Shown: positions 2,668 through 17,482 of the stretch, one piece after another
Layout: each line of letters begins with the position of its first letter
How positions within the stretch are numbered: position 1 is the first letter of the stretch
Assembly: GCA_015694865.1 (NCBI GenBank)
Contig: GCA_015694865.1_3933.1
Direction: 5' to 3' (one strand)
From: a phage
Length of the DNA: 25,324 nucleotides
Program-made: the position numbers and the translations under genes
The notes under the pieces: generated by a model
Told to the model about the DNA's origin: nothing
The model's input: the letters and a program-made list of their open reading frames with translations, nothing else
The model's database searches: none

Positions 2668-3146
2668 TTTTTAATACCCTTCTTAGTAGAAATTTTATAA
2701 GCAAGGTTATCTCTTAAGTCACCTGTCTCAACAAGAGGTGCGTTAAAGCCTTTTTTCTTGACTGTGGAAGGTGCGTTAGGAGGGAGGATAGCAGAATTAC
2801 CAAAACCCCTTTTAATTACCTTTTGAGTATTCTTTGCAAATGCTTCTAAGGTATTTGAAGGGTCTGTGTTGAGACTGCTAAGTTGCTTATATAGATTCTT
2901 CTTAGTCTGCTCTAACAAGGTCTGTTTGTTTAGCATCATAGTGATTTCAAACAACCTACGATATACTTTACCAGAAGCTGAAGGAACCCCAATAACTTCT
3001 TGTAAATACATTAAAGCAGGATAAGAAAAACCAGAGCTATGTTGACCTTGTTCTTGAAAATACCCAACTTGAGCATTAGCCGTCTGCAAGTTCTTCATAG
3101 CCCCGACTAATTTTGCTCTAGCGGGGTGAATAACCCTTTTAACCAT
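2664..3146 (-). CDS. hypothetical head-tail joining/minor structural protein
   Basis: 160 aa ORF in a co-oriented operon; no specific motif recognised. Confidence 0.5.
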   Translation of the reverse strand: MVKRVIHPARAKLVGAMKNLQTANAQVGYFQEQGQHSSGFSYPALMYLQEVIGVPSASGKVYRRLFEITMMLNKQTLLEQTKKNLYKQLSSLNTDPSNTLEAFAKNTQKVIKRGFGNSAILPPNAPSTVKKKGFNAPLVETGDLRDNLAYKISTKKGIKK

Positions 3147-10861: not shown

Positions 10862-10937
10862 TGGAGAATCCGAAGGGACTCGAACCCTTATAAACCTGTT
10901 TTGCAGACAGGCACATAGCCATTTCTGTCACGGATTC
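10862..10937 (-). tRNA. tRNA-Cys (anticodon GCA)
   Basis: 76 nt on reverse complement; acceptor GAATCCG/CGGATTC, T-arm AAGGG-TTCGAGT-CCCTT, anticodon loop CTGCAAA, CCA encoded. Confidence 0.8.
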
Positions 10938-10941
10938 AAAT

Positions 10942-11034
10942 TGGAGGAAGATACCAGACTTGAACTGGTACACCGATTTCTCAGCTACTGGCAGTTTAGC
11001 AAACTGCTCCCTTACCTTTTAGGGTTAATCTTCC
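10942..11034 (-). tRNA. tRNA-Ser (anticodon GCT), class II long variable arm
   Basis: 93 nt; acceptor GGAAGAT/ATCTTCC, anticodon stem GCAGT/ACTGC with loop TTGCTAA, about 21-nt variable arm, T-arm ACCAG-TTCAAGT-CTGGT, CCA encoded. Confidence 0.75.
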
Positions 11035-11035
11035 A

Positions 11036-11770
11036 TTATTTCTGTAATGCGTTCTTCATTTCTGGTGTTGCAATAGTGTCAATTACACCAGTTTTACAGG
11101 CATCATCAAACCAGTCTGGTAAGATACCTGCTAAGAACCCATTGATATTCGTTTTAAGGTACTCTGCAATAAGGGCAGCTTCTTCTTCAATCATCTGCAC
11201 AACTTCATCTGCATAAGCTGTAATCTTTGAGATACCTTCATTAATCTTACTGACAGCTTGGTTAGCTAAATCAGAAACAGTATCAAGACCCTTGTCAATA
11301 GCGTCTTGTAAGTCACTTAATACATCGTTAACACTCTCTAGTGTACTGTTAATCGTATCAATAGCTTTTTGACCATATTCTGTAGCAACACCCATAATAC
11401 CACTGAACGGTGTACAACCAACTTGTTCTCCTGCTGCACCCATAACATTGGAATATCCCTTTGCTACCTGCATACGTGATGAAAACTCATCAATAGATTT
11501 TTGACCGTAGTCTGTCAGGGTCTTAGTAGTTGCTGTAGTGCTTGTAAGGCTTGTTGTAAAGCTGTTTAGAAGGATTGTTGTAAGTCCAGCAGCAACAAGT
11601 TTCTCCTGCATTGTAGGGTCTGTTACAGAACTAATAGAGCTTACAAGTGATGTAGAAGCAGCTACGGTTCCACCGAGAACTGCTGCACCAGTAATAAGTG
11701 GGTTAGAAAACCCTTTACCGGTTTTTAAGAGATTAAAAATCTCCTTACCTTGTTCTGTCATCTCTTTCAT
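11036..11770 (-). CDS. hypothetical protein with N-terminal hydrophobic segment and long helical C-terminal region, embedded in the tRNA array
   Basis: ORF 11036..11833 trimmed to the internal Met at 11770 (AAAGG RBS) because the longer start would overlap tRNA-Phe; hydrophobic stretch LITGAAVLGGTVAASTSLVSSI. Confidence 0.5.
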   Translation of the reverse strand: MKEMTEQGKEIFNLLKTGKGFSNPLITGAAVLGGTVAASTSLVSSISSVTDPTMQEKLVAAGLTTILLNSFTTSLTSTTATTKTLTDYGQKSIDEFSSRMQVAKGYSNVMGAAGEQVGCTPFSGIMGVATEYGQKAIDTINSTLESVNDVLSDLQDAIDKGLDTVSDLANQAVSKINEGISKITAYADEVVQMIEEEAALIAEYLKTNINGFLAGILPDWFDDACKTGVIDTIATPEMKNALQK

Positions 11771-11786
11771 TAAGCACCTTTGAAAT

Positions 11787-11863
11787 TGGTAGTCCAGTGG
11801 GATTTGAACCCTCTTCTCATGTTTTTCAGACACGCGCTTTAACCATATAAGCTACTTGGACTA
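11787..11863 (-). tRNA. tRNA-Phe (anticodon GAA), acceptor/D-arm register ambiguous
   Basis: T-arm GAGGG-TTCAAAT-CCCAC, anticodon stem CGTGT/ACATG with loop CTGAAAA; the acceptor can pair as TAGTCCA/TGGACTA or a shifted register, so the ends are +/-2 nt. Confidence 0.55.
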
Positions 11864-11868
11864 TAAAT

Positions 11869-11944
11869 TGGGGTGACCTACGGGATTTGAACCCGTATAG
11901 ACCATGTTCACAGCATGGGTCATTACCATTTATGATAAGGCCAC
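11869..11944 (-). tRNA. tRNA-His (anticodon GTG)
   Basis: 76 nt; acceptor GTGGCCT/AGGTCAC, D-stem TCAT/ATGA, anticodon stem CCATG/CATGG with loop CTGTGAA, T-arm ACGGG-TTCAAAT-CCCGT, discriminator C, CCA encoded. Confidence 0.8.
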
Positions 11945-11975
11945 ATTTAAGGACTCTCGTAAGAACCCTTAGAAG

Positions 11976-12051
11976 TGGCAGCGGCATAAGGATTTGAACC
12001 TTAATAGGACAGCTTCAGAGACTGTTGCATTGCCAGTTATGCTATACCGCT
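11976..12051 (-). tRNA. tRNA-Gln (anticodon CTG)
   Basis: 76 nt; acceptor AGCGGTA/TGCCGCT, D-stem GCAT/ATGC, anticodon loop CTCTGAA, T-arm TAAGG-TTCAAAT-CCTTA, CCA encoded. Confidence 0.75.
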
Positions 12052-12056
12052 AAATT

Positions 12057-12135
12057 TGGTACTCCATATCGGATTCGAACCGATACATAACACAGATTTT
12101 AAGTCTGGCCTCTCTGCCAATTGGAGTAATGGAGC
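12057..12135 (-). tRNA. tRNA with Leu-type anticodon TAA but short variable region (atypical; isotype uncertain)
   Basis: 79 nt; acceptor GCTCCAT/ATGGAGT, T-arm ATCGG-TTCGAAT-CCGAT, best anticodon loop CTTAAAA on a 4-bp stem; no class II long arm. Confidence 0.5.
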
Positions 12136-12137
12136 AT

Positions 12138-12213
12138 TGGTGGGGGATGTTGGAATTGAACCAACTTCTTCGATTTCAAAGACCGAGGTTTTAACCTTGT
12201 AAACTAATCCCCT
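12138..12213 (-). tRNA. tRNA-Gln (anticodon TTG)
   Basis: 76 nt; T-arm GTTGG-TTCAATT-CCAAC, D-stem GTTT/AAAC, anticodon stem TCGGT/ATCGA with loop CTTTGAA; position 1-72 is an A-C mismatch. Confidence 0.7.
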
Positions 12214-12221
12214 TTAAATCT

Positions 12222-12779
12222 TTACTTTCTCAGTGGATGAATAAAGAATGCCAACATAACTCTTTCCCTTGAGAATGCTCTTTCTTCTGGGACAACACTT
12301 TTTAGTTTCCATCCAATATAAATTCTCCAGTAAAACTGTTTACCAAAGACTTTAATTGATGGGATAAAAGCGAATAATCCCCAAGCATTACTGTTCCACA
12401 TTAGGAGATAACCTGTCTGATTATCTTCAGGGTCAGAACTTACGTTGATATTACCTTTCCACTTAGTAACATCTTTTACATCTCTTCCTAATACATGGTA
12501 AGAGAAGTTATAGGCTTTGTTTCTCCAGAGCCATCCGACTCTCTGCATGTAGACACCCAGCTTACCAATCTTTCTAATCTTAGCCCATCGTTCGATATGA
12601 CCTTCGTCACCATCAATTGGGTTGTCATATGTCTCCATCCATCTAAATCCGAAAGGTAAGTGGCCTTTCTTCTCACTGTAAAATGGAACTACGAAAGGTG
12701 CTAAGATAACTGCTAAGGTTGCTGCTAATGGTTCTAGCAAAGCTAGGAAAATCCATGAAGCATATTTTAAATATCTCAT
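12222..12779 (-). CDS. hypothetical membrane-anchored protein embedded in the tRNA array
   Basis: 185 aa ORF; N-terminal hydrophobic helix (ASWIFLALLEPLAATLAVILAPFVVPF), Trp-rich soluble part; coupled to the upstream small ORF. Confidence 0.5.
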   Translation of the reverse strand: MRYLKYASWIFLALLEPLAATLAVILAPFVVPFYSEKKGHLPFGFRWMETYDNPIDGDEGHIERWAKIRKIGKLGVYMQRVGWLWRNKAYNFSYHVLGRDVKDVTKWKGNINVSSDPEDNQTGYLLMWNSNAWGLFAFIPSIKVFGKQFYWRIYIGWKLKSVVPEERAFSRERVMLAFFIHPLRK

Positions 12780-13018
12780 CGTCTAATCCTTGTAAGGAGA
12801 TAAATGTTATTATTCGTTTCTAAACCTTCTGGTAAAACTGTCTCAAAAATAACACTCTTTAGCTGTCTACCACCAAAACAATCACGTATAAATCTTTCTA
12901 CTCTAGCGGGGTCACATAAGTACCCTACTTTTAAGAAAATGTGGTGTTCAACACCAATGACCCTGACAAACTCAATATTCTCACAGTTTTCATGTTCAAC
13001 TACTGTTAATGTTTGCAT
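12776..13018 (-). CDS. hypothetical small protein (coupled to 12222..12779)
   Basis: 80 aa ORF; its stop overlaps the start of the downstream ORF (ATGA). Confidence 0.4.
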   Translation of the reverse strand: MQTLTVVEHENCENIEFVRVIGVEHHIFLKVGYLCDPARVERFIRDCFGGRQLKSVIFETVLPEGLETNNNIYLLTRIRR

Positions 13019-13035
13019 AGTATCACCTTTTTATC

Positions 13036-13111
13036 TGGCGCAGGATAAGGGATTCGAACCCCTATTAACAGCTTCGTAGACTGTTGCTCTATCCATTTGA
13101 ACTAATCCTGC
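13036..13111 (-). tRNA. tRNA-Arg (anticodon ACG)
   Basis: 76 nt; acceptor GCAGGAT/ATCCTGC, D-stem GTTC/GAGC, anticodon loop CTACGAA, T-arm AGGGG-TTCGAAT-CCCTT, CCA encoded. Confidence 0.8.
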
Positions 13112-13116
13112 AAAAT

Positions 13117-13194
13117 TGGTGTTCCAAGACGGATTCGAACCGTCACTAATACAAGGTTTGAGCTTACATCCTCTGCCAATTGGGATACTGGAAC
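13117..13194 (-). tRNA. tRNA with Leu-type anticodon CAA but short variable region (atypical; isotype uncertain)
   Basis: 78 nt; acceptor GTTCCAG/TTGGAAC, T-arm GACGG-TTCGAAT-CCGTC, D-loop AATTGGCAGAG shared with the 12057..12135 gene, anticodon loop CTCAAAC. Confidence 0.5.
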
Positions 13195-13195
13195 A

Positions 13196-13269
13196 TGGTA
13201 CTCACTAAAGGACTTGAACCTTTTCTTCATCTTGTAAGGGTGATGTTTTACCATATAAACTAAGCGAGT
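13196..13269 (-). tRNA. tRNA-Val (anticodon TAC)
   Basis: 74 nt; acceptor ACTCGCT/AGTGAGT, D-stem GTTT/AAAC, anticodon loop CTTACAA, T-arm AAAGG-TTCAAGT-CCTTT, CCA encoded; short variable loop. Confidence 0.65.
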
Positions 13270-13364
13270 GTGAAAGAGGTCTGAAGTTGTGCCGCTAACT
13301 CAACTCCGTGGAATTTGTTACGGTCTTCAGTTGACACCAGCGGTCTTTCACTTGACCTCTGAAT

Positions 13365-13441
13365 TGGTGCTGCTCACAGGACTCGAACCCGCATTTCCAT
13401 CCTTACAAGGGATGTGTAATAGCCAATTATACGAAAGCAGC
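13365..13441 (-). tRNA. tRNA-Thr (anticodon TGT)
   Basis: 77 nt; acceptor GCTGCTT/GAGCAGC, anticodon stem CATCC/GGATG with loop CTTGTAA, T-arm GCGGG-TTCGAGT-CCTGT, CCA encoded. Confidence 0.75.
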
Positions 13442-13448
13442 ATTAATT

Positions 13449-13524
13449 TGGAGCATCCAGAGGGAATCGAACCCTCAACCTCAGTTTGGAAGACTGTAAT
13501 TTTCCCGTTTAAACTATGGATGCA
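13449..13524 (-). tRNA. tRNA-Gly (anticodon TCC)
   Basis: 76 nt; acceptor GCATCCA/TGGATGC, anticodon loop CTTCCAA, T-arm GAGGG-TTCGATT-CCCTC, CCA encoded. Confidence 0.7.
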
Positions 13525-13529
13525 CTAAT

Positions 13530-13605
13530 TGGTGGAGAAGCAGGGAATTGAACCCTGTACTTAAGTTTGCAAAACTTATGTTTTAACCATGTAAACTACA
13601 TCCCC
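13530..13605 (-). tRNA. tRNA-Ala (anticodon TGC)
   Basis: 76 nt; G3-U70 wobble pair in the acceptor stem (Ala identity element), anticodon stem TAAGT/ACTTA with loop TTTGCAA, T-arm CAGGG-TTCAATT-CCCTG, CCA encoded. Confidence 0.75.
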
Positions 13606-13611
13606 AATGTA

Positions 13612-13687
13612 TGGTACAGGTGGAGGGAATTGAACCCATCGTCTTACTGATTAAGAGTCAGCCGCATAACCATTTTGCTACACCTGC
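13612..13687 (-). tRNA. tRNA-Lys (anticodon CTT)
   Basis: 76 nt; acceptor GCAGGTG/CACCTGT, anticodon stem GCTGA/TCAGT with loop CTCTTAA, T-loop TTCAATT, CCA encoded. Confidence 0.7.
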
Positions 13688-13694
13688 ATTAATT

Positions 13695-13772
13695 TGGTAG
13701 GAGACAAGGGATTCGAACCCTCAAACACCAACTTCTAAGGATGGTAGGTTTACCAATTACCGTCAATCTCCC
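13695..13772 (-). tRNA. tRNA with Leu-type anticodon TAG but short variable region (atypical; isotype uncertain)
   Basis: 78 nt; acceptor GGGAGAT/GTCTCCT, T-arm GAGGG-TTCGAAT-CCCTT, anticodon loop CTTAGAA on stem CCATC/GTTGG; D-arm poorly paired. Confidence 0.45.
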
Positions 13773-14028
13773 ATTAAATCTTTTTAGAGAACTTCTAAGA
13801 ACCTAAGCAACAAGGTTCCACAACAAGCTGTAATAACCTTAGAAGCCCTCTAAAAAGACCTAAAAAGGTCTTTGCATAGTCTTGTTTAATCCGGTGACTA
13901 GAACCTTTGGAGAGCTTGATATTATCTCTTCTCCGTGACACCTACTAGGTGCTTTACTGTGCTTGTACGACAATACACGAGGGATACCAAAGCAACATCC
14001 GAATGAAGCTTGGCTTTAAACCTTATTA

Positions 14029-14118
14029 GGCGGTAAGTAAAGGAGTCGAACCCTCACCGTATCTCTACAGTGGCAACTGTTTTCAAGACAGTTTGGCTAC
14101 CATTAGCCGCTACCTACC
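14029..14118 (-). tRNA. tRNA-Ser (anticodon TGA), class II
   Basis: About 88 nt; acceptor GGTAGGT/ACTTACC, D-stem GGC/GCC, anticodon stem ACTGT/ACAGT with loop CTTGAAA, long variable arm, T-loop TTCGACT; only CC of CCA encoded. Confidence 0.7.
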
Positions 14119-14131
14119 CCTAATAAGACTT

Positions 14132-14214
14132 TGGCATGGGACGGAGGAGTTGAACCCCTTTGAAACGGTTTTGGAGGCCGTTGCTCATGCCTTAGAGTCT
14201 TAACATCGTCCCAT
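14132..14214 (-). tRNA. tRNA-Trp-like (anticodon CCA) with abnormally long D-region; possibly a tRNA-like ncRNA
   Basis: 83 nt; perfect 7-bp acceptor ATGGGAC/GTCCCAT, T-loop TTCAACT, anticodon arm ACGGC-CTCCAAA-ACCGT, but about 16 nt between the D-stem strands. Confidence 0.5.
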
Positions 14215-14356
14215 ATTATAATTCGAAGCTTACCGTATTATCTCAACACTGTAAAGCCCCTTCTCAGATTATTTACATGTTCTGGAAAACATGAGATACA
14301 GACCACCTCCCTACAGGAAGACCCGCTTAGGTCGTCTAAGTAATCTGCTAACTAAT

Positions 14357-14433
14357 TGGCACACCCTACAGGATTCGAACCTGTAACTAACGATTTAGAA
14401 GACCGTTGCTCTATCCAATTGAACTAAGGGTGC
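14357..14433 (-). tRNA. tRNA-Arg (anticodon TCT)
   Basis: 77 nt; acceptor GCACCCT/AGGGTGT, D-stem GTTC/GAGC, anticodon stem ACGGT/ATCGT with loop CTTCTAA, T-arm ACAGG-TTCGAAT-CCTGT, CCA encoded. Confidence 0.8.
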
Positions 14434-14636
14434 ATTAATCTTTAAAGACTCTCTTAGAAAGCCCTTAAAGATGCCCACCTTATTAATCATACCGTGGGCT
14501 AGTACGCCAAATTCTTTGATGAGGGATTGGAAGACCTCACTGGTGTTTAGCCTATCAAGCTACTGCCAGAAAAACATTGTCGTTTGCATTTATTTTAAAT
14601 TTGCAAAATAGACGCTACGCAACGAAAACTAAGGTT

Positions 14637-14665
14637 ACTATAAAGTAGTCACATCTCAATGTCAA
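14637..14665 (-). promoter_or_regulatory. sigma70-like promoter on minus strand (TTGACA-17 bp-TATAGT)
   Basis: Plus-strand tgtcaa at 14660-14665 and actata at 14637-14642 give, on the minus strand, -35 TTGACA, a 17-nt spacer and -10 TATAGT, pointing at tRNA-Arg(TCT) and downstream tRNAs. Confidence 0.55.
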
Positions 14666-14680
14666 CAACTTTATTGAAAT

Positions 14681-14756
14681 TGGTACTGGTAGGTGGAATC
14701 GAACCACCGATGTTCCCTTATCAGGGGAGTGTTATAACCTTCTTAACTATACCAGC
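14681..14756 (-). tRNA. tRNA-Ile (anticodon GAT)
   Basis: 76 nt; acceptor GCTGGTA/TACCAGT, D-stem GTTA/TAAC, anticodon loop CTGATAA, T-arm GGTGG-TTCGATT-CCACC, CCA encoded. Confidence 0.75.
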
Positions 14757-14757
14757 T

Positions 14758-14834
14758 TGGAGGTTCAGATGGGATTCGAACCCATCGCCTGTCAGATTAA
14801 AAGTCTGCCGCATCACCATTCTGCTACACTTCCA
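14758..14834 (-). tRNA. tRNA-Lys-like (anticodon TTT) with poorly paired acceptor stem (possible pseudo-tRNA)
   Basis: Paralogous in sequence to the 13612..13687 tRNA-Lys; good T-arm ATGGG-TTCGAAT-CCCAT and anticodon arm GCAGA-CTTTTAA-TCTGA, but acceptor strands GGAAGTG vs CTGAACC pair at only 3 of 7 positions. Confidence 0.45.
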
Positions 14835-14837
14835 TTA

Positions 14838-14981
14838 AATTATCTTTGTAGATAAGCTACCCAGACTTGCTTAATGTCTGTAGCGATGTGCCTTTTTGGG
14901 TTTAAATCTAGAATTTACCCTTTCACCCTTTGTGGTCGCATACTCACAGGTAAGCTTAATAACTTATCTACAAAGATAATT
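14838..14981. repeat. 19-bp perfect inverted repeat (14838-14856 / 14963-14981) flanking a 106-bp non-coding segment
   Basis: aattatctttgtagataag at 14838-14856 is the exact reverse complement of cttatctacaaagataatt at 14963-14981. Confidence 0.7.
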
Positions 14982-15030
14982 ACCAGACCGTTGTTTATCA
15001 TCTTAAGTGCTACCATTACACCAACTCGAC

Positions 15031-15080
15031 ATCTGCCGAGTGAAGGAATCGAACCTTCGCCTTTTCTTTACCGGAGAAAT
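15031..15080 (-). ncRNA. tRNA-like fragment (T-arm plus 3' acceptor strand without a pairing 5' strand)
   Basis: Reverse complement gives TTTCT-CCGGTAA-AGAAA, then GAAGG-TTCGATT-CCTTC-ACTCGGC; no complementary 5' acceptor strand or recognisable D-arm within about 80 nt upstream. Confidence 0.35.
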
Positions 15081-15120
15081 AGATTGTTTAAGTTTTGCTG
15101 AATACGGTCTTCTGCAAAAT

Positions 15121-15197
15121 TGGAGGCGGGTGCAGGAGTCGAACCTACCGATACCATGCTAATGAGACATGTGAGACGCCCTTTCTCTATACCCGCA
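15121..15197 (-). tRNA. tRNA-Met (anticodon CAT; elongator, initiator or Ile2 not distinguishable)
   Basis: 77 nt; T-arm GTAGG-TTCGACT-CCTGC, anticodon stem CATGT/GCATG with loop CTCATTA, acceptor ACCCGCC with a 1-72 T-C mismatch in the best register, CCA encoded. Confidence 0.6.
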
Positions 15198-15287
15198 ATT
15201 CTCAATGACCAGACCAAATATCTTCTTTGTCCGATTTCGTGTCAGATGAGTAGATTAAGTTTGCTGTAATTGGTCTTCTGTCAAAAC

Positions 15288-15365
15288 TGGCGTTCCAGAA
15301 GGGATTTGAACCCTCAGATATCCACTTTGAAAGAGTGGTGACTTTACCATTTTGTCTACTGGAAC
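15288..15365 (-). tRNA. tRNA-Glu (anticodon TTC)
   Basis: 78 nt; acceptor GTTCCAG/CTGGAAC, anticodon stem CCACT/AGTGG with loop CTTTCAA, T-arm GAGGG-TTCAAAT-CCCTT, CCA encoded. Confidence 0.7.
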
Positions 15366-15375
15366 ATTAATTTGT

Positions 15376-15449
15376 TCTCTGTTGGAGGACTTGAACCTCC
15401 GGCCTTACCGCCCCAAACGGAACGCTCTACCAAGCTGAGCTAAACAGAG
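15376..15449 (-). tRNA. tRNA-Pro (anticodon TGG)
   Basis: 74 nt without CCA; C1-G72 pair, D-arm TAGCTCAGCTTGGTAGAGC, anticodon loop TTTGGGG with G37, T-arm GGAGG-TTCAAGT-CCTCC. Confidence 0.75.
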
Positions 15450-15567
15450 ATAAACTTTTCAAACTCTATGTAACCACTTTAACATTATTTTTTAGTGGTT
15501 GTCAAGAACTTTTTTAAAATATTTTTCAGTATCTTAGAAAAGCTCTCATTTCGTTTCTATGTAGAAC

Positions 15568-15596
15568 ATATTAAAGGGTATCAAACACATTGTCAA
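15568..15596 (-). promoter_or_regulatory. sigma70-like promoter on minus strand (TTGACA-17 bp-TAATAT) upstream of the tRNA array
   Basis: Plus-strand tgtcaa at 15591-15596 and atatta at 15568-15573 give, on the minus strand, -35 TTGACA, a 17-nt spacer and -10 TAATAT; the -35 sits in the loop of a 9-bp inverted repeat (aaagggtat/ataccctt). Confidence 0.5.
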
Positions 15597-15614
15597 TACC
15601 CTTTTTAAAACTTT

Positions 15615-17029
15615 TTACCAGATGTAACGGTCAATCATTACTGCTTTGAGCATTACACTGATTGGGTCAAACTTCTCACCACCAAGCAGAGCTTTTAAAG
15701 TAGCTGGAGAAAAACCAGATACCATTGCTACACCGTTATCCTTAACAGACACTTCGCAAGTACCATTACGGTTTGCTAAGTACCAGAATACCAGTTGAGG
15801 CATTTCGTATCCAGCTTTTTTGTACTTACTCTGAATTGCTTCAAAGTTTGTACGACCGTTAGCTCCATCAACCTGATTGAACTCCATATCGGAGAAGATG
15901 ATAAGCTTACTTGCATGTCTTTCTTAGTCAAGTTGTTTCTCTTACCTACCTCAAGAATCCGGTCAAAAGCTGCTTGTAAGTTAGTTGAGCCATATTCAAC
16001 ATGTCGCATCACCTGACGATGACGGTTTCGTAAATCACCACTCAGTTCGATGAAGTGAGGGTTTGTTGAATAAACCATTAACTCATCCTTAAAGCAACCT
16101 GTATTGCGTTCTGCTACATACAAGGCAAGGGATACACCAATATCAAGGGCAGTGATTGAACCAAGATTCACCCAAGACATTGAGCTTGAAACATCAGTCA
16201 TACACAAGATGTTTTCACCTTCTGCCATCCAGTTTGGTAGTGCTTTCCACTGCTCATTGGCAACATCTGCATTACCATGCTTGATAGACTTAATCACATC
16301 GTATGGGTAAACAGCACCAGCGTTAATCTTAGTCTCACCTTTTGATAAGGACTCAATGTAAGCTTTGTAACGTTCTCCATCCTTACGGTTAAACAGTTTT
16401 TGGTAACGTGCAGCAGCAAGTGAAGGAGTCTTACTGTAGTCAATCTTACCAAACTCATTAGCAGAGATTTTTTGCTCAACTGTATCAGATAGTGCAGACA
16501 ACAGTGTGCGGTACTCTTTCTCACTCAAGTTGGCAAACTTGCAGAAACGTTTTACAAACTGCTTATGACGTGGTTTGACTCGTGGTAACCACTTAGCCGC
16601 CAAACCTGCTGTTGCAGGTTCTAGTAATGCTGCTTCTAGATGTTTGAAGGCATCTGTCTCGAAACGAGTACCTACGAAGATTTTGAAGTCATCAAAACGA
16701 CCAAGTTCTGCAATCTTATCCATAATGCGAAGAACCTGCGTAGGCTCTAAAACTTTGTCTTCAATCGCTTGAAGTAAAACAGTTCTGAAGGCTTTACGCT
16801 CACCCATACCTTCTCGTACATCTCGCATATGAAGCAAAATACGAACTGCAACATCAACATCCTCACGCAAAGCTTTGTAGAACAGGTCTGGTAAGATTTC
16901 TACGTTGCTACGGCTTGAACCAGCAGCTTTGTAAAAGTCTACAAGAGCAGACATTGATGAAGTATGGTTTACAGCACCATTTTCAGTTCGACCTGCATGA
17001 AGGTGCGCATGTTTAAATAATTCGCTCAT
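15615..17029 (-). CDS. Ro60-like vWA-domain protein, interrupted by an apparent frameshift near 15885-15926
   Basis: Two overlapping minus-strand ORFs (15776..17029 and 15615..15887) in different frames; MIDAS-like TDVSSSM motif in the first; the second frame reads ...HASKLIIFSDMEFNQ..., typical of the end of a vWA fold. Ro60-like (DUF2828-type) assignment is from memory. Confidence 0.6.
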
Positions 17030-17110
17030 ATTTTACTCTCTTCTCTCATTTGTTTGTTGATGTGACAGACTTTAGAGCAACTTTGTAGAGTCTGTCAACA
17101 CCTTTTAAAA

Positions 17111-17482
17111 TTATTTTTTGAGAGTCGCTACAGCAGAGAACGTTGGTTTGTTATCTGTCTGAGACTGACCACCATTATCAGGGGTCTTCTTAGTGTCTGC
17201 TGCAATCGCTTTCATCTCACCTGCTGAGTGAGTCATGATGGTTTTACCAGCCTCCATCATCGACTTCAGGTTTACATCGTCAGTCGTCAAACCGAACTCT
17301 GCAAGCTTAGCAGCATCCCTTGTAACAACCGCCTCAAACAACTTTGCAGCAAACTCAGCAGAATTATCAATGGTCAGTTGAGCTTTTACAAGTGAGCTTT
17401 TGTTACGAGAGCCTTTTGGTCTTCCAGATGGGTTTCCAGACTGGCCTTTTTTAAACTGGCCTTTGTTTGTTCTGTTTTTCAT
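17111..17482 (-). CDS. small basic protein with GNPSGRPKG motif (candidate DNA-binding protein or small terminase-like protein)
   Basis: 123 aa ORF; N-terminal K/R-rich region with GNPSGRPKG; first gene of the minus-strand operon. Confidence 0.5.
   Translation of the reverse strand: MKNRTNKGQFKKGQSGNPSGRPKGSRNKSSLVKAQLTIDNSAEFAAKLFEAVVTRDAAKLAEFGLTTDDVNLKSMMEAGKTIMTHSAGEMKAIAADTKKTPDNGGQSQTDNKPTFSAVATLKK

What the first reader, a model, noticed from the sequence alone, without database searches (positions are those of the whole stretch)
14132..17029. Ro60-like vWA protein gene next to a tRNA island that contains non-canonical tRNA-like elements: possible Y-RNA-like module
The gene at 15615..17029 encodes a helical N-terminal region plus a vWA domain with a MIDAS-like motif, the architecture of Ro60-related (Rsr-type) proteins. 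It sits directly upstream of the tRNA array on the same strand. In bacteria, Rsr genes are known to lie beside Y-RNA genes whose tRNA-like domains are often mis-called as tRNAs or tRNA pseudogenes. Three nearby elements fit that description: a Trp-like gene with an oversized D-region (14132..14214), a Lys-like gene with an unpaired acceptor stem (14758..14834), and a T-arm-only fragment (15031..15080).
Basis: partly seen in the sequence, partly recalled or inferred. Interest (0 to 1): 0.75.

Follow-up and report, generated by a model that had tools for sequence, protein, structure and literature searches.

The report
Phage Ro-like protein and partner RNAs
A Felix O1-type phage has a gene (broken in this isolate) for a Ro60-shaped RNA-binding protein, followed by small structured RNAs lying between its tRNA genes; the same RNA "handle" sits beside this protein in dozens of unrelated phages and resembles the unexplained Class I RNAs of social amoebae.

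Summary
The window comes from a Felixounavirus. Gene 15615-17029(-) is a DUF2828+DUF7788 protein. Its AlphaFold model matches full-length Ro60 structures, although no sequence similarity to Ro60 is detectable. In this window a 1-nt deletion near 15913 interrupts the gene.

- The Trp-like gene is a conserved, unannotated tRNA-Trp(CCA).
- The Lys-like gene is a Lys/Met deletion chimera.
- The "T-arm fragment" is the core of a 133-nt RNA (14981-15113,-). Its T arm, acceptor-like hairpin and D arm follow the permuted order of YrlA Y RNAs.

That RNA is closed by a 7-bp stem followed by (A/U)UUCAGCAA. A second RNA (15207-15279,-) has the same handle. Relatives carry four such RNAs.

A covariance model of the handle finds these RNAs beside DUF2828 genes in many phage lineages: 50 of 50 hits in 65 IMG/VR loci lie on the gene strand. 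Some sit in the gene's own 5' leader.

The handle (5' AAG, short stem, UUACAGCAA, 3' CUGU) matches Dictyostelium Class I RNAs.

The Ro60 likeness and the Y-RNA idea were already published for phage Bas63. The RNAs themselves, their spread and the amoeba link are, as far as I could find, new. Protein-RNA binding is inferred, not shown.

The parts
15615..17029 (-). Ro60-fold protein gene (DUF2828 + DUF7788/vWA with complete MIDAS), interrupted by a 1-nt deletion at about 15913/15914. ORF pieces are 15776-17029 and 15615-15887.
   Evidence: ORFs, Pfam, frameshift, MIDAS residues DVSSS..T..SDM. (AF2 pLDDT 86; top 10 PDB matches all Ro60).
17069..17098 (-). Promoter-like site (TTGACA-18-TAAAGT) upstream of the Ro-like gene.
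   Evidence: Consensus match only.
15476..15596 (-). Two promoter-like sites (15596-15568 and 15505-15476) upstream of tRNA-Pro, the start of the tRNA/small-RNA transcription unit.
   Evidence: Consensus matches only.
15207..15279 (-). Small RNA E1, lying between tRNA-Glu and tRNA-Met. Its 7-bp terminal stem is AGACCAA (15276-15270) paired with UUGGUCU (15217-15211). The motif UUACAGCAA (15269-15261) follows the 5' strand. It has a variable body and a 3' GG tail.
   Evidence: 40.1 bits, E 1e-7. Orthologues exist in three genera.
14981..15113 (-). YrlA-like RNA E4; in this isolate it is an E2/E4 recombinant. Parts in order:
- handle stem AGACCGU 15110-15104 paired with ACGGUCU 14991-14985
- motif AUUCAGCAA 15103-15095
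- V hairpin 15078-15062
- T arm 15058-15042
- acceptor-like hairpin 15041-15024
- UG, then the D arm to 15007
   Evidence: 30.8 bits, E 2e-5; this sequence was not in the model's training set. Compensatory changes in the acceptor-like hairpin.
14132..14214 (-). Unannotated tRNA-Trp(CCA) with an oversized D region and encoded CCA. It is a tRNA, not part of the Y-like module.
   Evidence: Compensatory changes AACGG/CCGUU to GUAAG/CUUAC, and in the T stem.
14758..14834 (-). Chimeric tRNA: the 5' part of tRNA-Lys(UUU) joined in the T loop to the 3' part of a second tRNA-Met that relatives keep. Probably non-functional.
10862..15450 (-). tRNA array that hosts the small RNAs in its spacers (context).

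Best explanation
The region encodes a phage ribonucleoprotein module analogous to Ro60 with its Y RNAs.

Protein. It is a Ro60-shaped ring (HEAT-like repeats plus a vWA domain with MIDAS) of the DUF2828 family.

RNAs. The proposed partners are small RNAs transcribed with the tRNA array and released from the tRNA spacers by the tRNA end-processing enzymes. They begin 1-5 nt after an upstream tRNA's CCA and end about 10 nt before the next tRNA.

Every RNA carries a constant handle: a 5' AAG, a 7-bp terminal stem, a single-stranded (U)UACAGCAA directly after the 5' stem strand, and a 3' (C)UG(U/G) tail. I propose that this handle is the protein-binding site.

The body varies. It can be a short hairpin (E1 here), or that hairpin plus a circularly permuted tRNA-like domain of T arm, closed acceptor stem and D arm (E4 here). 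The tRNA-like domain would recruit tRNA-recognising factors, as proposed for YrlA.

Likely role. The module probably acts in RNA or tRNA surveillance and counter-defence during infection. In Bas63 the orthologous protein counters the ppl defence system.

State in this isolate. The module is decayed: the protein gene is frameshifted and two of the four ancestral RNAs are deleted.

Shown here: the fold; the RNA architecture and its conservation and covariation; the strict co-location and co-orientation with the gene.

Inferred: transcription and processing; direct binding of the handle by the protein; the biological role.
For: Protein:
- AF2 model pLDDT 86, pTM 0.87.
- Foldseek against PDB: the top 10 are all full-length Ro60/TROVE chains, including phage phiLo Ro60, with TM 0.5-0.67.
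- MIDAS residues are invariant in the family.

RNA in Ounavirinae:
- Four conserved elements E1-E4 occur in Felixouna-, Susp- and Mooglevirus. Their stem NN positions co-vary (GU/AC versus AA/UU).
- The E4 acceptor-like hairpin is replaced compensatorily: ACUCGGC/GUCGAGU, ACACG/CGUGU, ACCCUUC/GAAGGGU.
- The T loop (UUCGAUU) and the D arm (U8, A14, G18G19, A21) are canonical.

Generality:
- Model R1, built from 26 short elements, finds new members next to DUF2828 genes in six lineages not used to build it.
- In 65 IMG/VR loci it gives 50 hits at E<=0.05. All 50 are on the gene strand, they fall in 34 of the 65 loci, and they are mostly within a few hundred nt of the gene.
- In the window only the two elements hit.
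- The permuted T-hairpin-D descriptor gives 30 hits in 800 kb and none in shuffles; 27 of the 30 have CAGCAA within 90 nt upstream.

Link to the protein:
- Minimal handle-only elements lie just 5' of the Shine-Dalgarno sequence of the DUF2828 gene in several uncultivated phages and in phiM19.
- In ValKK3 and KVP40-like phages they overlap the Shine-Dalgarno sequence and the AUG.

Against: - There is no expression, processing or binding data for any of these RNAs.
- The association with the protein is by position only.
- No sequence similarity to TROVE is detectable.
- The RNA lacks a conserved YrlA Ro-binding motif, so the Ro/Y analogy rests on fold and architecture.
- MFE z-scores of E1 and E4 alone are unremarkable (-0.7 and -1.1).
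- The 100% stem pairing is circular, because the sequences were selected for perfect stems.
- About half of the IMG/VR loci, and phages Ah1 and CBB, show no hit within the flanks examined.
- In this window the protein gene is broken, so the module may be inactive here.
Confidence: 0.7

Rival explanations
1. The stem-plus-CAGCAA elements are signals for processing or spacing of the tRNA precursor (RNase sites, folding insulators) or transcription signals. On this reading they have no relationship to the Ro-like protein.
For: In Ounavirinae they sit in tRNA spacers and abut tRNA ends. Many DUF2828 genes lie beside tRNA arrays, so co-location could be indirect.
Against: - The same elements flank DUF2828 genes where ARAGORN finds no tRNA in the whole locus (Rumpelstiltskin) or only one tRNA far from the elements (Krypton555), and in S-CoN_Ph16 they sit directly after the gene, away from its one annotated tRNA.
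- They occur in the gene's own 5' leader.
- A tRNA-like T-acceptor-D domain with conserved tertiary-interaction nucleotides is not expected of a spacer signal.
Confidence: 0.12
2. E4 is the acceptor piece of a two-piece (permuted) tmRNA. Its coding part would be the tag-like region ANDNVFLAVA** found 450-600 nt downstream.
For: - ARAGORN calls a permuted tmRNA spanning E4 and the tag in both Mooglevirus genomes.
- Rfam tmRNA models match 14434-14623 weakly (E 1.4e-3).
- The tag is conserved, with synonymous changes.
Against: - There is no G3:U70 in any E4 acceptor helix.
- CCA is absent in Felixounavirus and Suspvirus.
- E4 has a full D stem and is closed by its own handle stem.
- Three tRNA genes and a separate promoter (14665-14637) lie between E4 and the tag.
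- E4-like RNAs occur in five other lineages that lack any tag.
Confidence: 0.05
3. The elements are decaying tRNA pseudogenes or selfish repeats that merely promote recombination in the tRNA island.
For: Both window-specific deletions have endpoints in repeated sequence: the E2/E4 handles and the T loops. VSe11 carries the same E2/E4 deletion.
Against: - The handle and the permuted order are conserved across phages of Gram-positive, Gram-negative and actinobacterial hosts.
- Base changes are compensatory.
- Strand bias is absolute.
Confidence: 0.05

Closest known systems
Bacterial and phage Ro60 (Rsr, TROVE) with YrlA-type Y RNAs (Chen et al. 2014, PMC4201824; phage phiLo Ro60 with Yrl1/2, PMC12135203)
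   Same: - Ring-shaped HEAT-repeat plus vWA/MIDAS fold.
- Small RNAs encoded within a few hundred nt to ~2 kb of the gene on the same strand.
- Several RNAs per locus (compare YrlA and YrlB).
- One RNA has a tRNA-like domain in the order V, T, closed acceptor stem, D, closed by a stem formed by the RNA ends.
- Some homologues have a 7-bp acceptor stem with encoded (N)CCA, like M. smegmatis YrlA.
   Different: - The protein is DUF2828/DUF7788, with no detectable sequence similarity to TROVE.
- The RNA handle is a 7-bp stem plus single-stranded ACAGCAA, not the GNCGAAN0-1G/CGAA bulged helix.
- The RNAs are embedded in tRNA spacers.
- No Rfam Y-RNA family matches.
- Binding has not been tested.
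Dictyostelium Class I RNAs (Rfam RF01414; Kjellin et al. 2021, PMC7919456)
   Same: - 5' AAG, a 6-7 bp terminal stem, and the motif (CC)UUACAGCAA directly after the 5' stem strand.
- A variable, A-rich body, a 3' CUGU end, and a length of 42-90 nt.
- The positions universal in Dictyostelia (C6, C9, A10, A11) are invariant in the phage set.
- Some members of both sets carry a T arm (asu_can_20, ppa_can_99).
- The Rfam model aligns full length to the phage elements.
   Different: - Scores stay below Rfam's gathering score: 13-30 bits against 41.5.
- The window's copies end in CUGG, and the first two motif positions differ.
- Class I RNAs come from eukaryotic genes with a DUSE promoter.
- The only known direct binder is the RRM protein Rnp1A/CIBP.
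- Whether dictyostelids have a DUF2828 protein could not be tested here.
Bas63 (JohannRWettstein) gp130, PhageMaP preprint 10.1101/2024.10.10.617714
   Different: No RNA was identified there. Here the candidate RNAs are non-tRNA spacer elements, not annotated tRNAs. The window's copy of the gene is frameshifted.
Phage T4 stable RNAs species 1 and 2 in the tRNA gene cluster (from my own knowledge)
   Same: Small stable RNAs of unknown function, co-transcribed with phage tRNAs and released by tRNA processing enzymes.
   Different: No known Ro-like partner and no known shared motif. Not compared here.

Membership tests
Ro60 / TROVE (Rsr) proteins | Sequence match to the TROVE domain (Pfam PF05731) or to solved Ro60 sequences | tested here: not met
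   Pfam scan at E<=10 gives only DUF2828 and DUF7788. A family HMM against all PDB sequences finds no Ro60.
Ro60 / TROVE (Rsr) proteins | Ring of helical repeats followed by a vWA domain, superposable on Ro60 | tested here: met
   AF2 model. Foldseek top 10 are all Ro60 chains over about 520-560 columns, E 2e-8 to 5e-7, TM up to 0.67.
Ro60 / TROVE (Rsr) proteins | MIDAS motif (DxSxS...T...D) in the vWA domain | tested here: met
   D279, S281, S283, T349 and D381 are invariant in 36 homologues. They are present in the frame-corrected window protein, but D381 lies downstream of the frameshift.
Ro60 / TROVE (Rsr) proteins | Binds Y RNA and misfolded RNA | not testable with these tools
   No binding data. 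Only positional association.
YrlA-type bacterial Y RNA | Encoded within about 4 kb of the Ro gene on the same strand | tested here: met
   E1 lies 336 nt and E4 502 nt downstream of the gene's end, on the same strand.
YrlA-type bacterial Y RNA | tRNA-like domain in the order V, T arm, closed acceptor-like stem, D arm, enclosed by a stem formed by the 5' and 3' ends | tested here: met
   E4 at 15113-14981. The same plan is seen in Cronobacter S13, Mycobacterium Rumpelstiltskin and Krypton555, Ralstonia RSP15, Bacillus MrDarsey and IMG/VR loci.
YrlA-type bacterial Y RNA | GNCGAAN0-1G motif in the 5' strand of the Ro-binding stem | tested here: not met
   The only match, GGCGAAGG at 15061, overlaps the T stem rather than the closing stem. 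It is absent in finno and Mordin.
YrlA-type bacterial Y RNA | Match to a curated Y-RNA covariance model | tested here: not met
   No Y-RNA family appears at E<=10 in 13700-15700 or in 14960-15130.
Dictyostelium Class I RNA (RF01414) | Short terminal stem joining the 5' and 3' ends, with the conserved 11-nt motif next to the 5' strand | tested here: met
   E1 reads AGACCAA-UUACAGCAA...UUGGUCU; E4 reads AGACCGU-AUUCAGCAA...ACGGUCU. Nine of the 11 motif positions are identical in E1.
Dictyostelium Class I RNA (RF01414) | Conserved ends: 5' (A)AG and 3' CUGU | tested here: inconclusive
   The phage family consensus is auAAG...CUGUUa. The window's copies have AAG but end in CUGG.
Dictyostelium Class I RNA (RF01414) | Score at or above Rfam's gathering score (41.5 bits) | tested here: not met
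   Window elements score 17.5 and 13.3 bits. The best phage elements score 28-30 bits, E 0.14-0.4.
Dictyostelium Class I RNA (RF01414) | DUSE promoter about 60 nt upstream; dictyostelid genome | tested here: not met
   This is a phage genome. Sigma-70-like promoters lie upstream of the array.
Two-piece (permuted) tmRNA | Alanine-identity acceptor stem (G3:U70) with a CCA end on the acceptor piece | tested here: not met
   The window acceptor-like helix is GUCGAGU/ACUCGGC with no CCA. Mooglevirus has GCCA but an A3-U70 pair.
Two-piece (permuted) tmRNA | Coding piece with resume codon and tag contiguous with the tRNA-like domain | tested here: not met
   The tag at 14587-14552 is separated from E4 by tRNA-Lys/Met and tRNA-Ile and by its own promoter.
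Canonical tRNA (Trp-like element 14132-14214) | Cloverleaf with 7-bp acceptor stem, anticodon loop, T arm and CCA, maintained by compensatory change | tested here: met
   AUGGGAC/GUCCCAU plus G plus CCA; loop CUCCAAA; the anticodon stem and T stem co-vary across three genera. The D region is atypical, and ARAGORN and the Rfam tRNA model miss it.
Canonical tRNA (Lys-like element 14758-14834) | Paired acceptor stem | tested here: not met
   Four of seven acceptor positions are flagged as non-standard pairs. The 3' strand comes from the neighbouring tRNA-Met of relatives.

The most novel reading that the evidence does not exclude
The handle-bearing phage RNAs and the Class I RNAs of dictyostelid amoebae are one RNA family whose cognate protein is the Ro60-fold DUF2828 protein.

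On this reading, Class I RNAs are not unique to Dictyostelia, as has been reported. They would be the Y-RNA equivalents of a second, widespread Ro-like RNP lineage, possibly acquired from bacteria or phages.

DDB_G0281243, the uncharacterised protein pulled down with Class I RNA DdR-21, is a candidate DUF2828 partner.
Probability: 0.4. Interest if true: 0.9.

Novelty: new variant of a known kind. Interest (0 to 1): 0.8.

Why it matters
- Ro60 with Y RNA is a conserved but poorly understood RNA-surveillance RNP. This work gives a second, sequence-unrelated Ro-shaped protein family (710 phage records) a concrete, searchable RNA partner with a simple handle. Binding, structure and function become directly testable.
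- It explains "orphan" spacers and mis-called or oversized tRNAs in many phage tRNA islands.
- It offers RNA candidates for the reported anti-ppl activity of Bas63 gp130.
- It suggests autoregulation through the gene's own leader.
- If the match to Dictyostelium Class I RNAs is real, it gives that abundant, developmentally regulated RNA class a candidate protein partner and a candidate evolutionary origin, both long-standing open questions.

Tried and rejected
- Rfam Y-RNA or YrlA match: none.
- Sequence homology to solved Ro60 by HMM: none. Only fold comparison shows the relationship.
- AlphaFold-database fold search, intended to find a dictyostelid homologue: library unavailable.
- Avesson 2011 (the DdR-21 pull-down paper): not held. 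Searches for DDB_G0281243, DUF2828 and UCP015417 gave nothing useful.
- Similarity between the bodies of phage and Dictyostelium RNAs: weak. Mean best local score was 19.0 against 17.7 in shuffles, and only a subset shares UUCAAUUG..GAAA. The window's E1 shows none. The Dictyostelium link therefore rests on the handle.
- MAFFT alignment of YrlA-like members from seven lineages (A4): too rough for a covariance model. I used a descriptor scan with a shuffle control instead.
- Pair statistics on A3: discounted as circular. The out-of-sample searches carry the argument.
- MFE z-scores of E1 and E4: not significant.
- The first GNCGAA pattern search failed on syntax and was redone in Python.
- The T-arm fragment as a window-specific deletion remnant: rejected, because it is conserved in all relatives.


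Full report
**Identity of the window.** The region 13700-17100 is 96-97% identical to E. coli and Salmonella phages of the genus Felixounavirus (ekra, finno, HY02, UAB_Phi87). 279 phage records match. On the minus strand lie a DUF5681 gene (17111-17482), the gene in question (15615-17029), and then 22 tRNA genes (10862-15450). The same order is kept in Suspvirus and Mooglevirus.

**The protein.**
- In relatives the gene is one 1416-nt ORF, annotated "vWFA protein" or "RNA-binding protein".
- In the window it is 1415 nt and split into ORFs of 417 and 90 aa. One C of ATGCCAAG is missing at about 15913/15914, at invariant Pro373. This lies just before the strand that carries the last MIDAS aspartate.
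- The cause is either a real inactivating mutation or a sequencing error. Truncated homologues exist in other isolates (P0009, P0012, P0015).
- Pfam finds DUF2828 and DUF7788, and no TROVE hit even at E<=10. PHROG 850 is named "RNA-binding protein".
- A 36-sequence family profile finds no Ro60 among PDB sequences.
- An AlphaFold2 model of the intact orthologue (pLDDT 86, pTM 0.87) has Ro60/TROVE chains as its ten best PDB matches. These include Xenopus, human and Deinococcus Ro60 and Thermus phage phiLo Ro60, aligned over their whole length (E 2e-8 to 5e-7, TM 0.48-0.67, 11-15% identity). Isolated vWA domains follow far behind.
- So the fold, but not the sequence family, is that of Ro60.
- This was already reported for the orthologue Bas63 gp130. 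The same preprint showed that gp130 counters the ppl defence, and speculated that some Bas63 "tRNA genes" might be Y RNAs. Actinophage annotators already use the name "Ro-like RNA binding protein".

**The three odd elements.**

*1. The Trp-like element, 14132-14214.*
- It reads AUGGGAC...GUCCCAU-G-CCA, with anticodon loop CUCCAAA and T loop UUCAACU.
- It is conserved in three genera with compensatory replacements: AACGG/CCGUU becomes GUAAG/CUUAC in the anticodon stem, and GGGG/CCUC becomes UGGG/CCUA in the T stem.
- Trp is the only amino acid otherwise missing from the tRNA set of intact relatives.
- I read it as a real tRNA-Trp with an unusual D region that standard tools miss.

*2. The Lys-like element, 14758-14834.*
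- finno and HY02 carry tRNA-Lys(UUU) followed by a second tRNA-Met(CAU). The window lacks about 82 nt, with a 14-nt overlap in the T loop.
- The Lys 5' part is therefore joined to the 3' acceptor strand of the Met gene. That explains the four acceptor-stem positions Rfam flags as non-standard pairs.
- It is a deletion chimera, not a Y RNA.

*3. The T-arm "fragment".*
- It is conserved in all relatives and is not a fragment.
- On the minus strand the sequence runs in this order:
  - handle stem and motif
  - a hairpin UUUCU-CCGGUAA-AGAAA
  - T arm GAAGG-UUCGAUU-CCUUC
  - directly abutting it, a 7-bp hairpin ACUCGGC-AGAU-GUCGAGU
  - UG
  - a canonical D arm GUGU-AAUGGUA-GCAC
  - handle 3' strand
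- T arm, then a closed acceptor-like stem, then D arm, preceded by a variable hairpin and enclosed by a stem formed by the RNA ends: this is the layout described for YrlA.
- The acceptor-like helix changes compensatorily between genera. In Mooglevirus its loop encodes GCCA.

**A repeated handle.**
- E4 is closed by AGACCGU/ACGGUCU, and the 5' strand is followed by AUUCAGCAA.
- A second element (E1, 15207-15279) between tRNA-Glu and tRNA-Met has AGACCAA/UUGGUCU followed by UUACAGCAA.
- Intact relatives have four such elements: E1 after tRNA-Glu, E2 after tRNA-Met, E3 after tRNA-Asp, and E4 directly after E3.
- The window's 512-nt deletion is a crossover between the handles of E2 and E4. It removed the E2 body, tRNA-Asn, Tyr and Asp, and E3. 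Salmonella virus VSe11 has the same deletion but an intact gene and intact Lys and Met genes.
- The elements start 1-5 nt after the CCA of the upstream tRNA. E1 ends 9 nt before tRNA-Met. tRNA end-processing would therefore release them; this is an inference.
- ORFs annotated over this region differ between records in strand and position and are probably spurious.

**Generality and association with the gene.**
- tblastn finds homologues of the protein in 710 phage records, from hosts as different as Mycobacterium, Listeria, Staphylococcus, Bacillus, Campylobacter, Vibrio and Ralstonia.
- A simple scanner (7-bp stem, 2-4 nt, CAGCAA, matching 3' strand) found clusters of elements beside the gene and on its strand in:
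  - Aeromonas phage 4_4572 (8 elements)
  - Mycobacterium phage Rumpelstiltskin (3)
  - Listeria P100 (3)
  - Campylobacter CP30A (2)
  - Ralstonia RSP15 (5)
  - Bacillus MrDarsey (5)
  - Cronobacter S13 (1)
  - Yersinia P778 (1 with a perfect stem; two further CAGCAA-bearing copies noted by eye, one scoring E 0.017 and one only E 0.26 with the model)
- The shuffled background was 0.45 per 10 kb.
- A covariance model (R1) built from 26 short elements was tested on sequences not used to build it.
  - It scores the window's E4 at 30.8 bits and the E4 copies of other Ounavirinae at up to 36 bits.
  - It finds elements directly next to the gene in Staphylococcus S-CoN_Ph16, Mycobacterium Krypton555, Enterococcus VRE9_2 and Prevotella Lak-B1.
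  - In 65 non-Ounavirinae IMG/VR loci (465 kb) it gives 50 hits at E<=0.05. All 50 are on the gene strand, in 34 loci, mostly just after or just before the gene.
- The pairing statistics are circular, because stems were selected as perfect. The out-of-sample searches carry the argument.
- tRNA-like versions with the same T-hairpin-D order occur in at least six further lineages, several with an encoded (N)CCA in the acceptor loop.
- A descriptor for that order gives 30 hits in 800 kb and none after shuffling. 27 of the 30 have CAGCAA within 90 nt upstream. Two of the other three are ordinary tandem tRNA junctions.
- In Aeromonas 4_4572 and Cronobacter S13 the CAGCAA motif and a short stem are instead inserted into the anticodon arm of an otherwise normal-order tRNA-like gene.

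**A pointer to direct interaction.**
- In several uncultivated phages and in Sinorhizobium phiM19, a minimal ~43-nt handle-only element lies immediately 5' of the Shine-Dalgarno sequence of the DUF2828 gene.
- In ValKK3 and KVP40-like phages the 3' strand of the stem contains the start codon, and the loop contains the Shine-Dalgarno sequence.
- That arrangement is typical of RNA-binding proteins that repress their own translation.
- It is the best available hint that the protein recognises the handle, but it remains an inference.

**Resemblance to Dictyostelium Class I RNAs.**
- The only Rfam family that aligns to these elements is RF01414. It aligns full length, at 13-17 bits in the window and 28-30 bits (E 0.14-0.4 after correction for 4227 families) for three Aeromonas-phage elements.
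- Class I RNAs are defined by four features: a 5' (A)AG; a 6-bp terminal stem; an 11-nt motif CCUUACAGCAA next to the 5' strand, in which U3, C6, C9, A10 and A11 are universal; and a 3' CUGU. The body is variable and the length is 42-65 nt. They are reported to be unique to Dictyostelia.
- The consensus of the phage model is auAAG-stem-UUACAGCAA-(A-rich body)-stem-CUGUUa. C6, A7, G8, C9, A10 and A11 are invariant in the phage set.
- A sequence-only HMM built from 37 published Class I RNAs places 34 of its 35 hits (E<=10, 221 kb) on the phage elements. This is partly expected, because both sets share the motif.
- Some Class I RNAs carry a T arm (asu_can_20, ppa_can_99).
- Similarity of the bodies is weak and limited to a subset.
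- A DdR-21 pull-down recovered Rnp1A/CIBP, GuaB, NdkC and an uncharacterised protein, DDB_G0281243. I could not determine whether that protein, or any dictyostelid protein, is a DUF2828 member.
- I therefore treat the link as a strong resemblance of the handle and as an open hypothesis about homology.

**Mechanism.**
- I propose a Ro/Y-like RNP. The ring protein binds the constant handle, and the variable bodies act as effector modules. The tRNA-like body presents a tRNA elbow and acceptor helix without an anticodon loop.
- The neighbourhoods are rich in tRNA arrays, RNA ligases and CCA-adding enzymes. Together with the Bas63 result, this points to RNA or tRNA surveillance or counter-defence.
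- The fold, the RNA architecture and the association are shown. Expression, processing, binding and role are inferred.
- In this isolate the module looks degraded: a frameshifted gene, two RNAs lost, and one chimeric tRNA.

**Rivals.**
- Spacer or processing signals. This is unlikely given that ARAGORN finds no tRNA in the Rumpelstiltskin locus and only one, far from the elements, in Krypton555, and that elements occur in the gene's own leader.
- A two-piece tmRNA. ARAGORN calls one in Mooglevirus, combining E4 with a conserved tag-like frame ANDNVFLAVA**. But no E4 has alanine identity. The tag has its own promoter and is separated from E4 by three tRNA genes. E4-like RNAs also exist without any tag elsewhere.
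- Decaying pseudogenes or repeats. This is contradicted by the covariation and the absolute strand bias.

**Verdict.** The Ro60 likeness and the Y-RNA idea are already published for a close relative. New here, as far as the held literature shows, are the actual RNAs, their constant handle, their wide association with DUF2828 genes, and their match to Class I RNAs.

Noticed in passing
window 14434-14665 (-): A tmRNA-like messenger domain without a tRNA-like domain.
- Promoter-like TTGACA-17-TATAGT at 14665-14637.
- A strongly structured ~200-nt region (z = -4.6).
- It holds GCA AAC GAC AAU GUU UUU CUG GCA GUA GCU UGA UAG, reading ANDNVFLAVA** (14587-14552).
- The frame is conserved in three genera with synonymous changes.
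- Rfam tmRNA matches weakly (E 1.4e-3).
- Its function is unknown.
   Followed up: partly
L004 2989-3738 and L005 2989-3737 (Citrobacter phages Mordin and Moogle): ARAGORN calls a permuted tmRNA that joins the YrlA-like element (whose acceptor loop encodes GCCA in Mooglevirus) to the tag region ~600 nt downstream, across three tRNA genes.
   Followed up: partly
window 14838-14981 (-): Directly after E4, a perfect ~24-bp stem encloses a branched ~100-nt region (MFE -48.8 kcal/mol, z = -5.6). The region includes a mini-hairpin CAGAC-AUUAAGCAA-GUCUG that echoes the handle. Its sequence differs in Suspvirus and Mooglevirus.
   Followed up: partly
window 14132-14214 (-): Probable tRNA-Trp(CCA), not called by ARAGORN or the Rfam tRNA model and not annotated in finno or HY02. 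It would complete a 20-amino-acid tRNA set in intact Felixounaviruses.
   Followed up: yes
window ~15089-15122 and ~14771-14784: Two deletions relative to finno and HY02, both at repeated sequence.
- ~512 nt between the handles of E2 and E4, removing tRNA-Asn, Tyr, Asp and E3. VSe11 shares this deletion.
- ~82 nt between two T loops, producing the Lys/Met chimera.
finno itself has a 91-nt insertion at about window 14632.
   Followed up: yes
window 13768-13867 (-) within the 257-nt gap 13772-14029: A long hairpin, which gives weak matches to plant microRNA precursor models, and a terminator-like AAAGACC-UUUUU-AGGUCUUU lie between tRNA-Ser and tRNA-Leu. Not examined further.
   Followed up: no
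L012 2426-2977 (Listeria phage P100): A ROOL RNA match (86 bits, below the gathering score of 99) lies ~1 kb upstream of the DUF2828 gene, among tRNAs and three handle elements.
   Followed up: no
L009 2494-2610; L010 6896-7016 and 7026-7138: Oversized tRNA-like genes in normal order with CCA. A stem followed by (CC)UUACAGCAA or AUUCAGCA replaces the anticodon loop. In S13 they are annotated as a 121-nt tRNA-Ser and a 113-nt tRNA-OTHER.
   Followed up: partly
L008 4961-5010, L038/L039 ~2965-3010, L054 2943-2985, L041 2892-2936, L095 2901-2946, L019 3893-3934: Minimal handle-only elements in the 5' leader of the DUF2828 gene itself. In ValKK3 and KVP40-like phages they overlap the Shine-Dalgarno sequence and the AUG. 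This suggests translational autoregulation.
   Followed up: partly
window 11036-11833 (-), 12222-12779 (-), 12776-13018 (-): Protein-coding ORFs (265, 185 and 80 aa) are interspersed in the tRNA array. The 185-aa ORF is a conserved Felix O1 protein in relatives. Not examined.
   Followed up: no
L019 2570-2622 (Sinorhizobium phage phiM19): A permuted T arm-hairpin-D arm element with no CAGCAA within 90 nt upstream. It may carry a diverged handle or belong to a different class.
   Followed up: no
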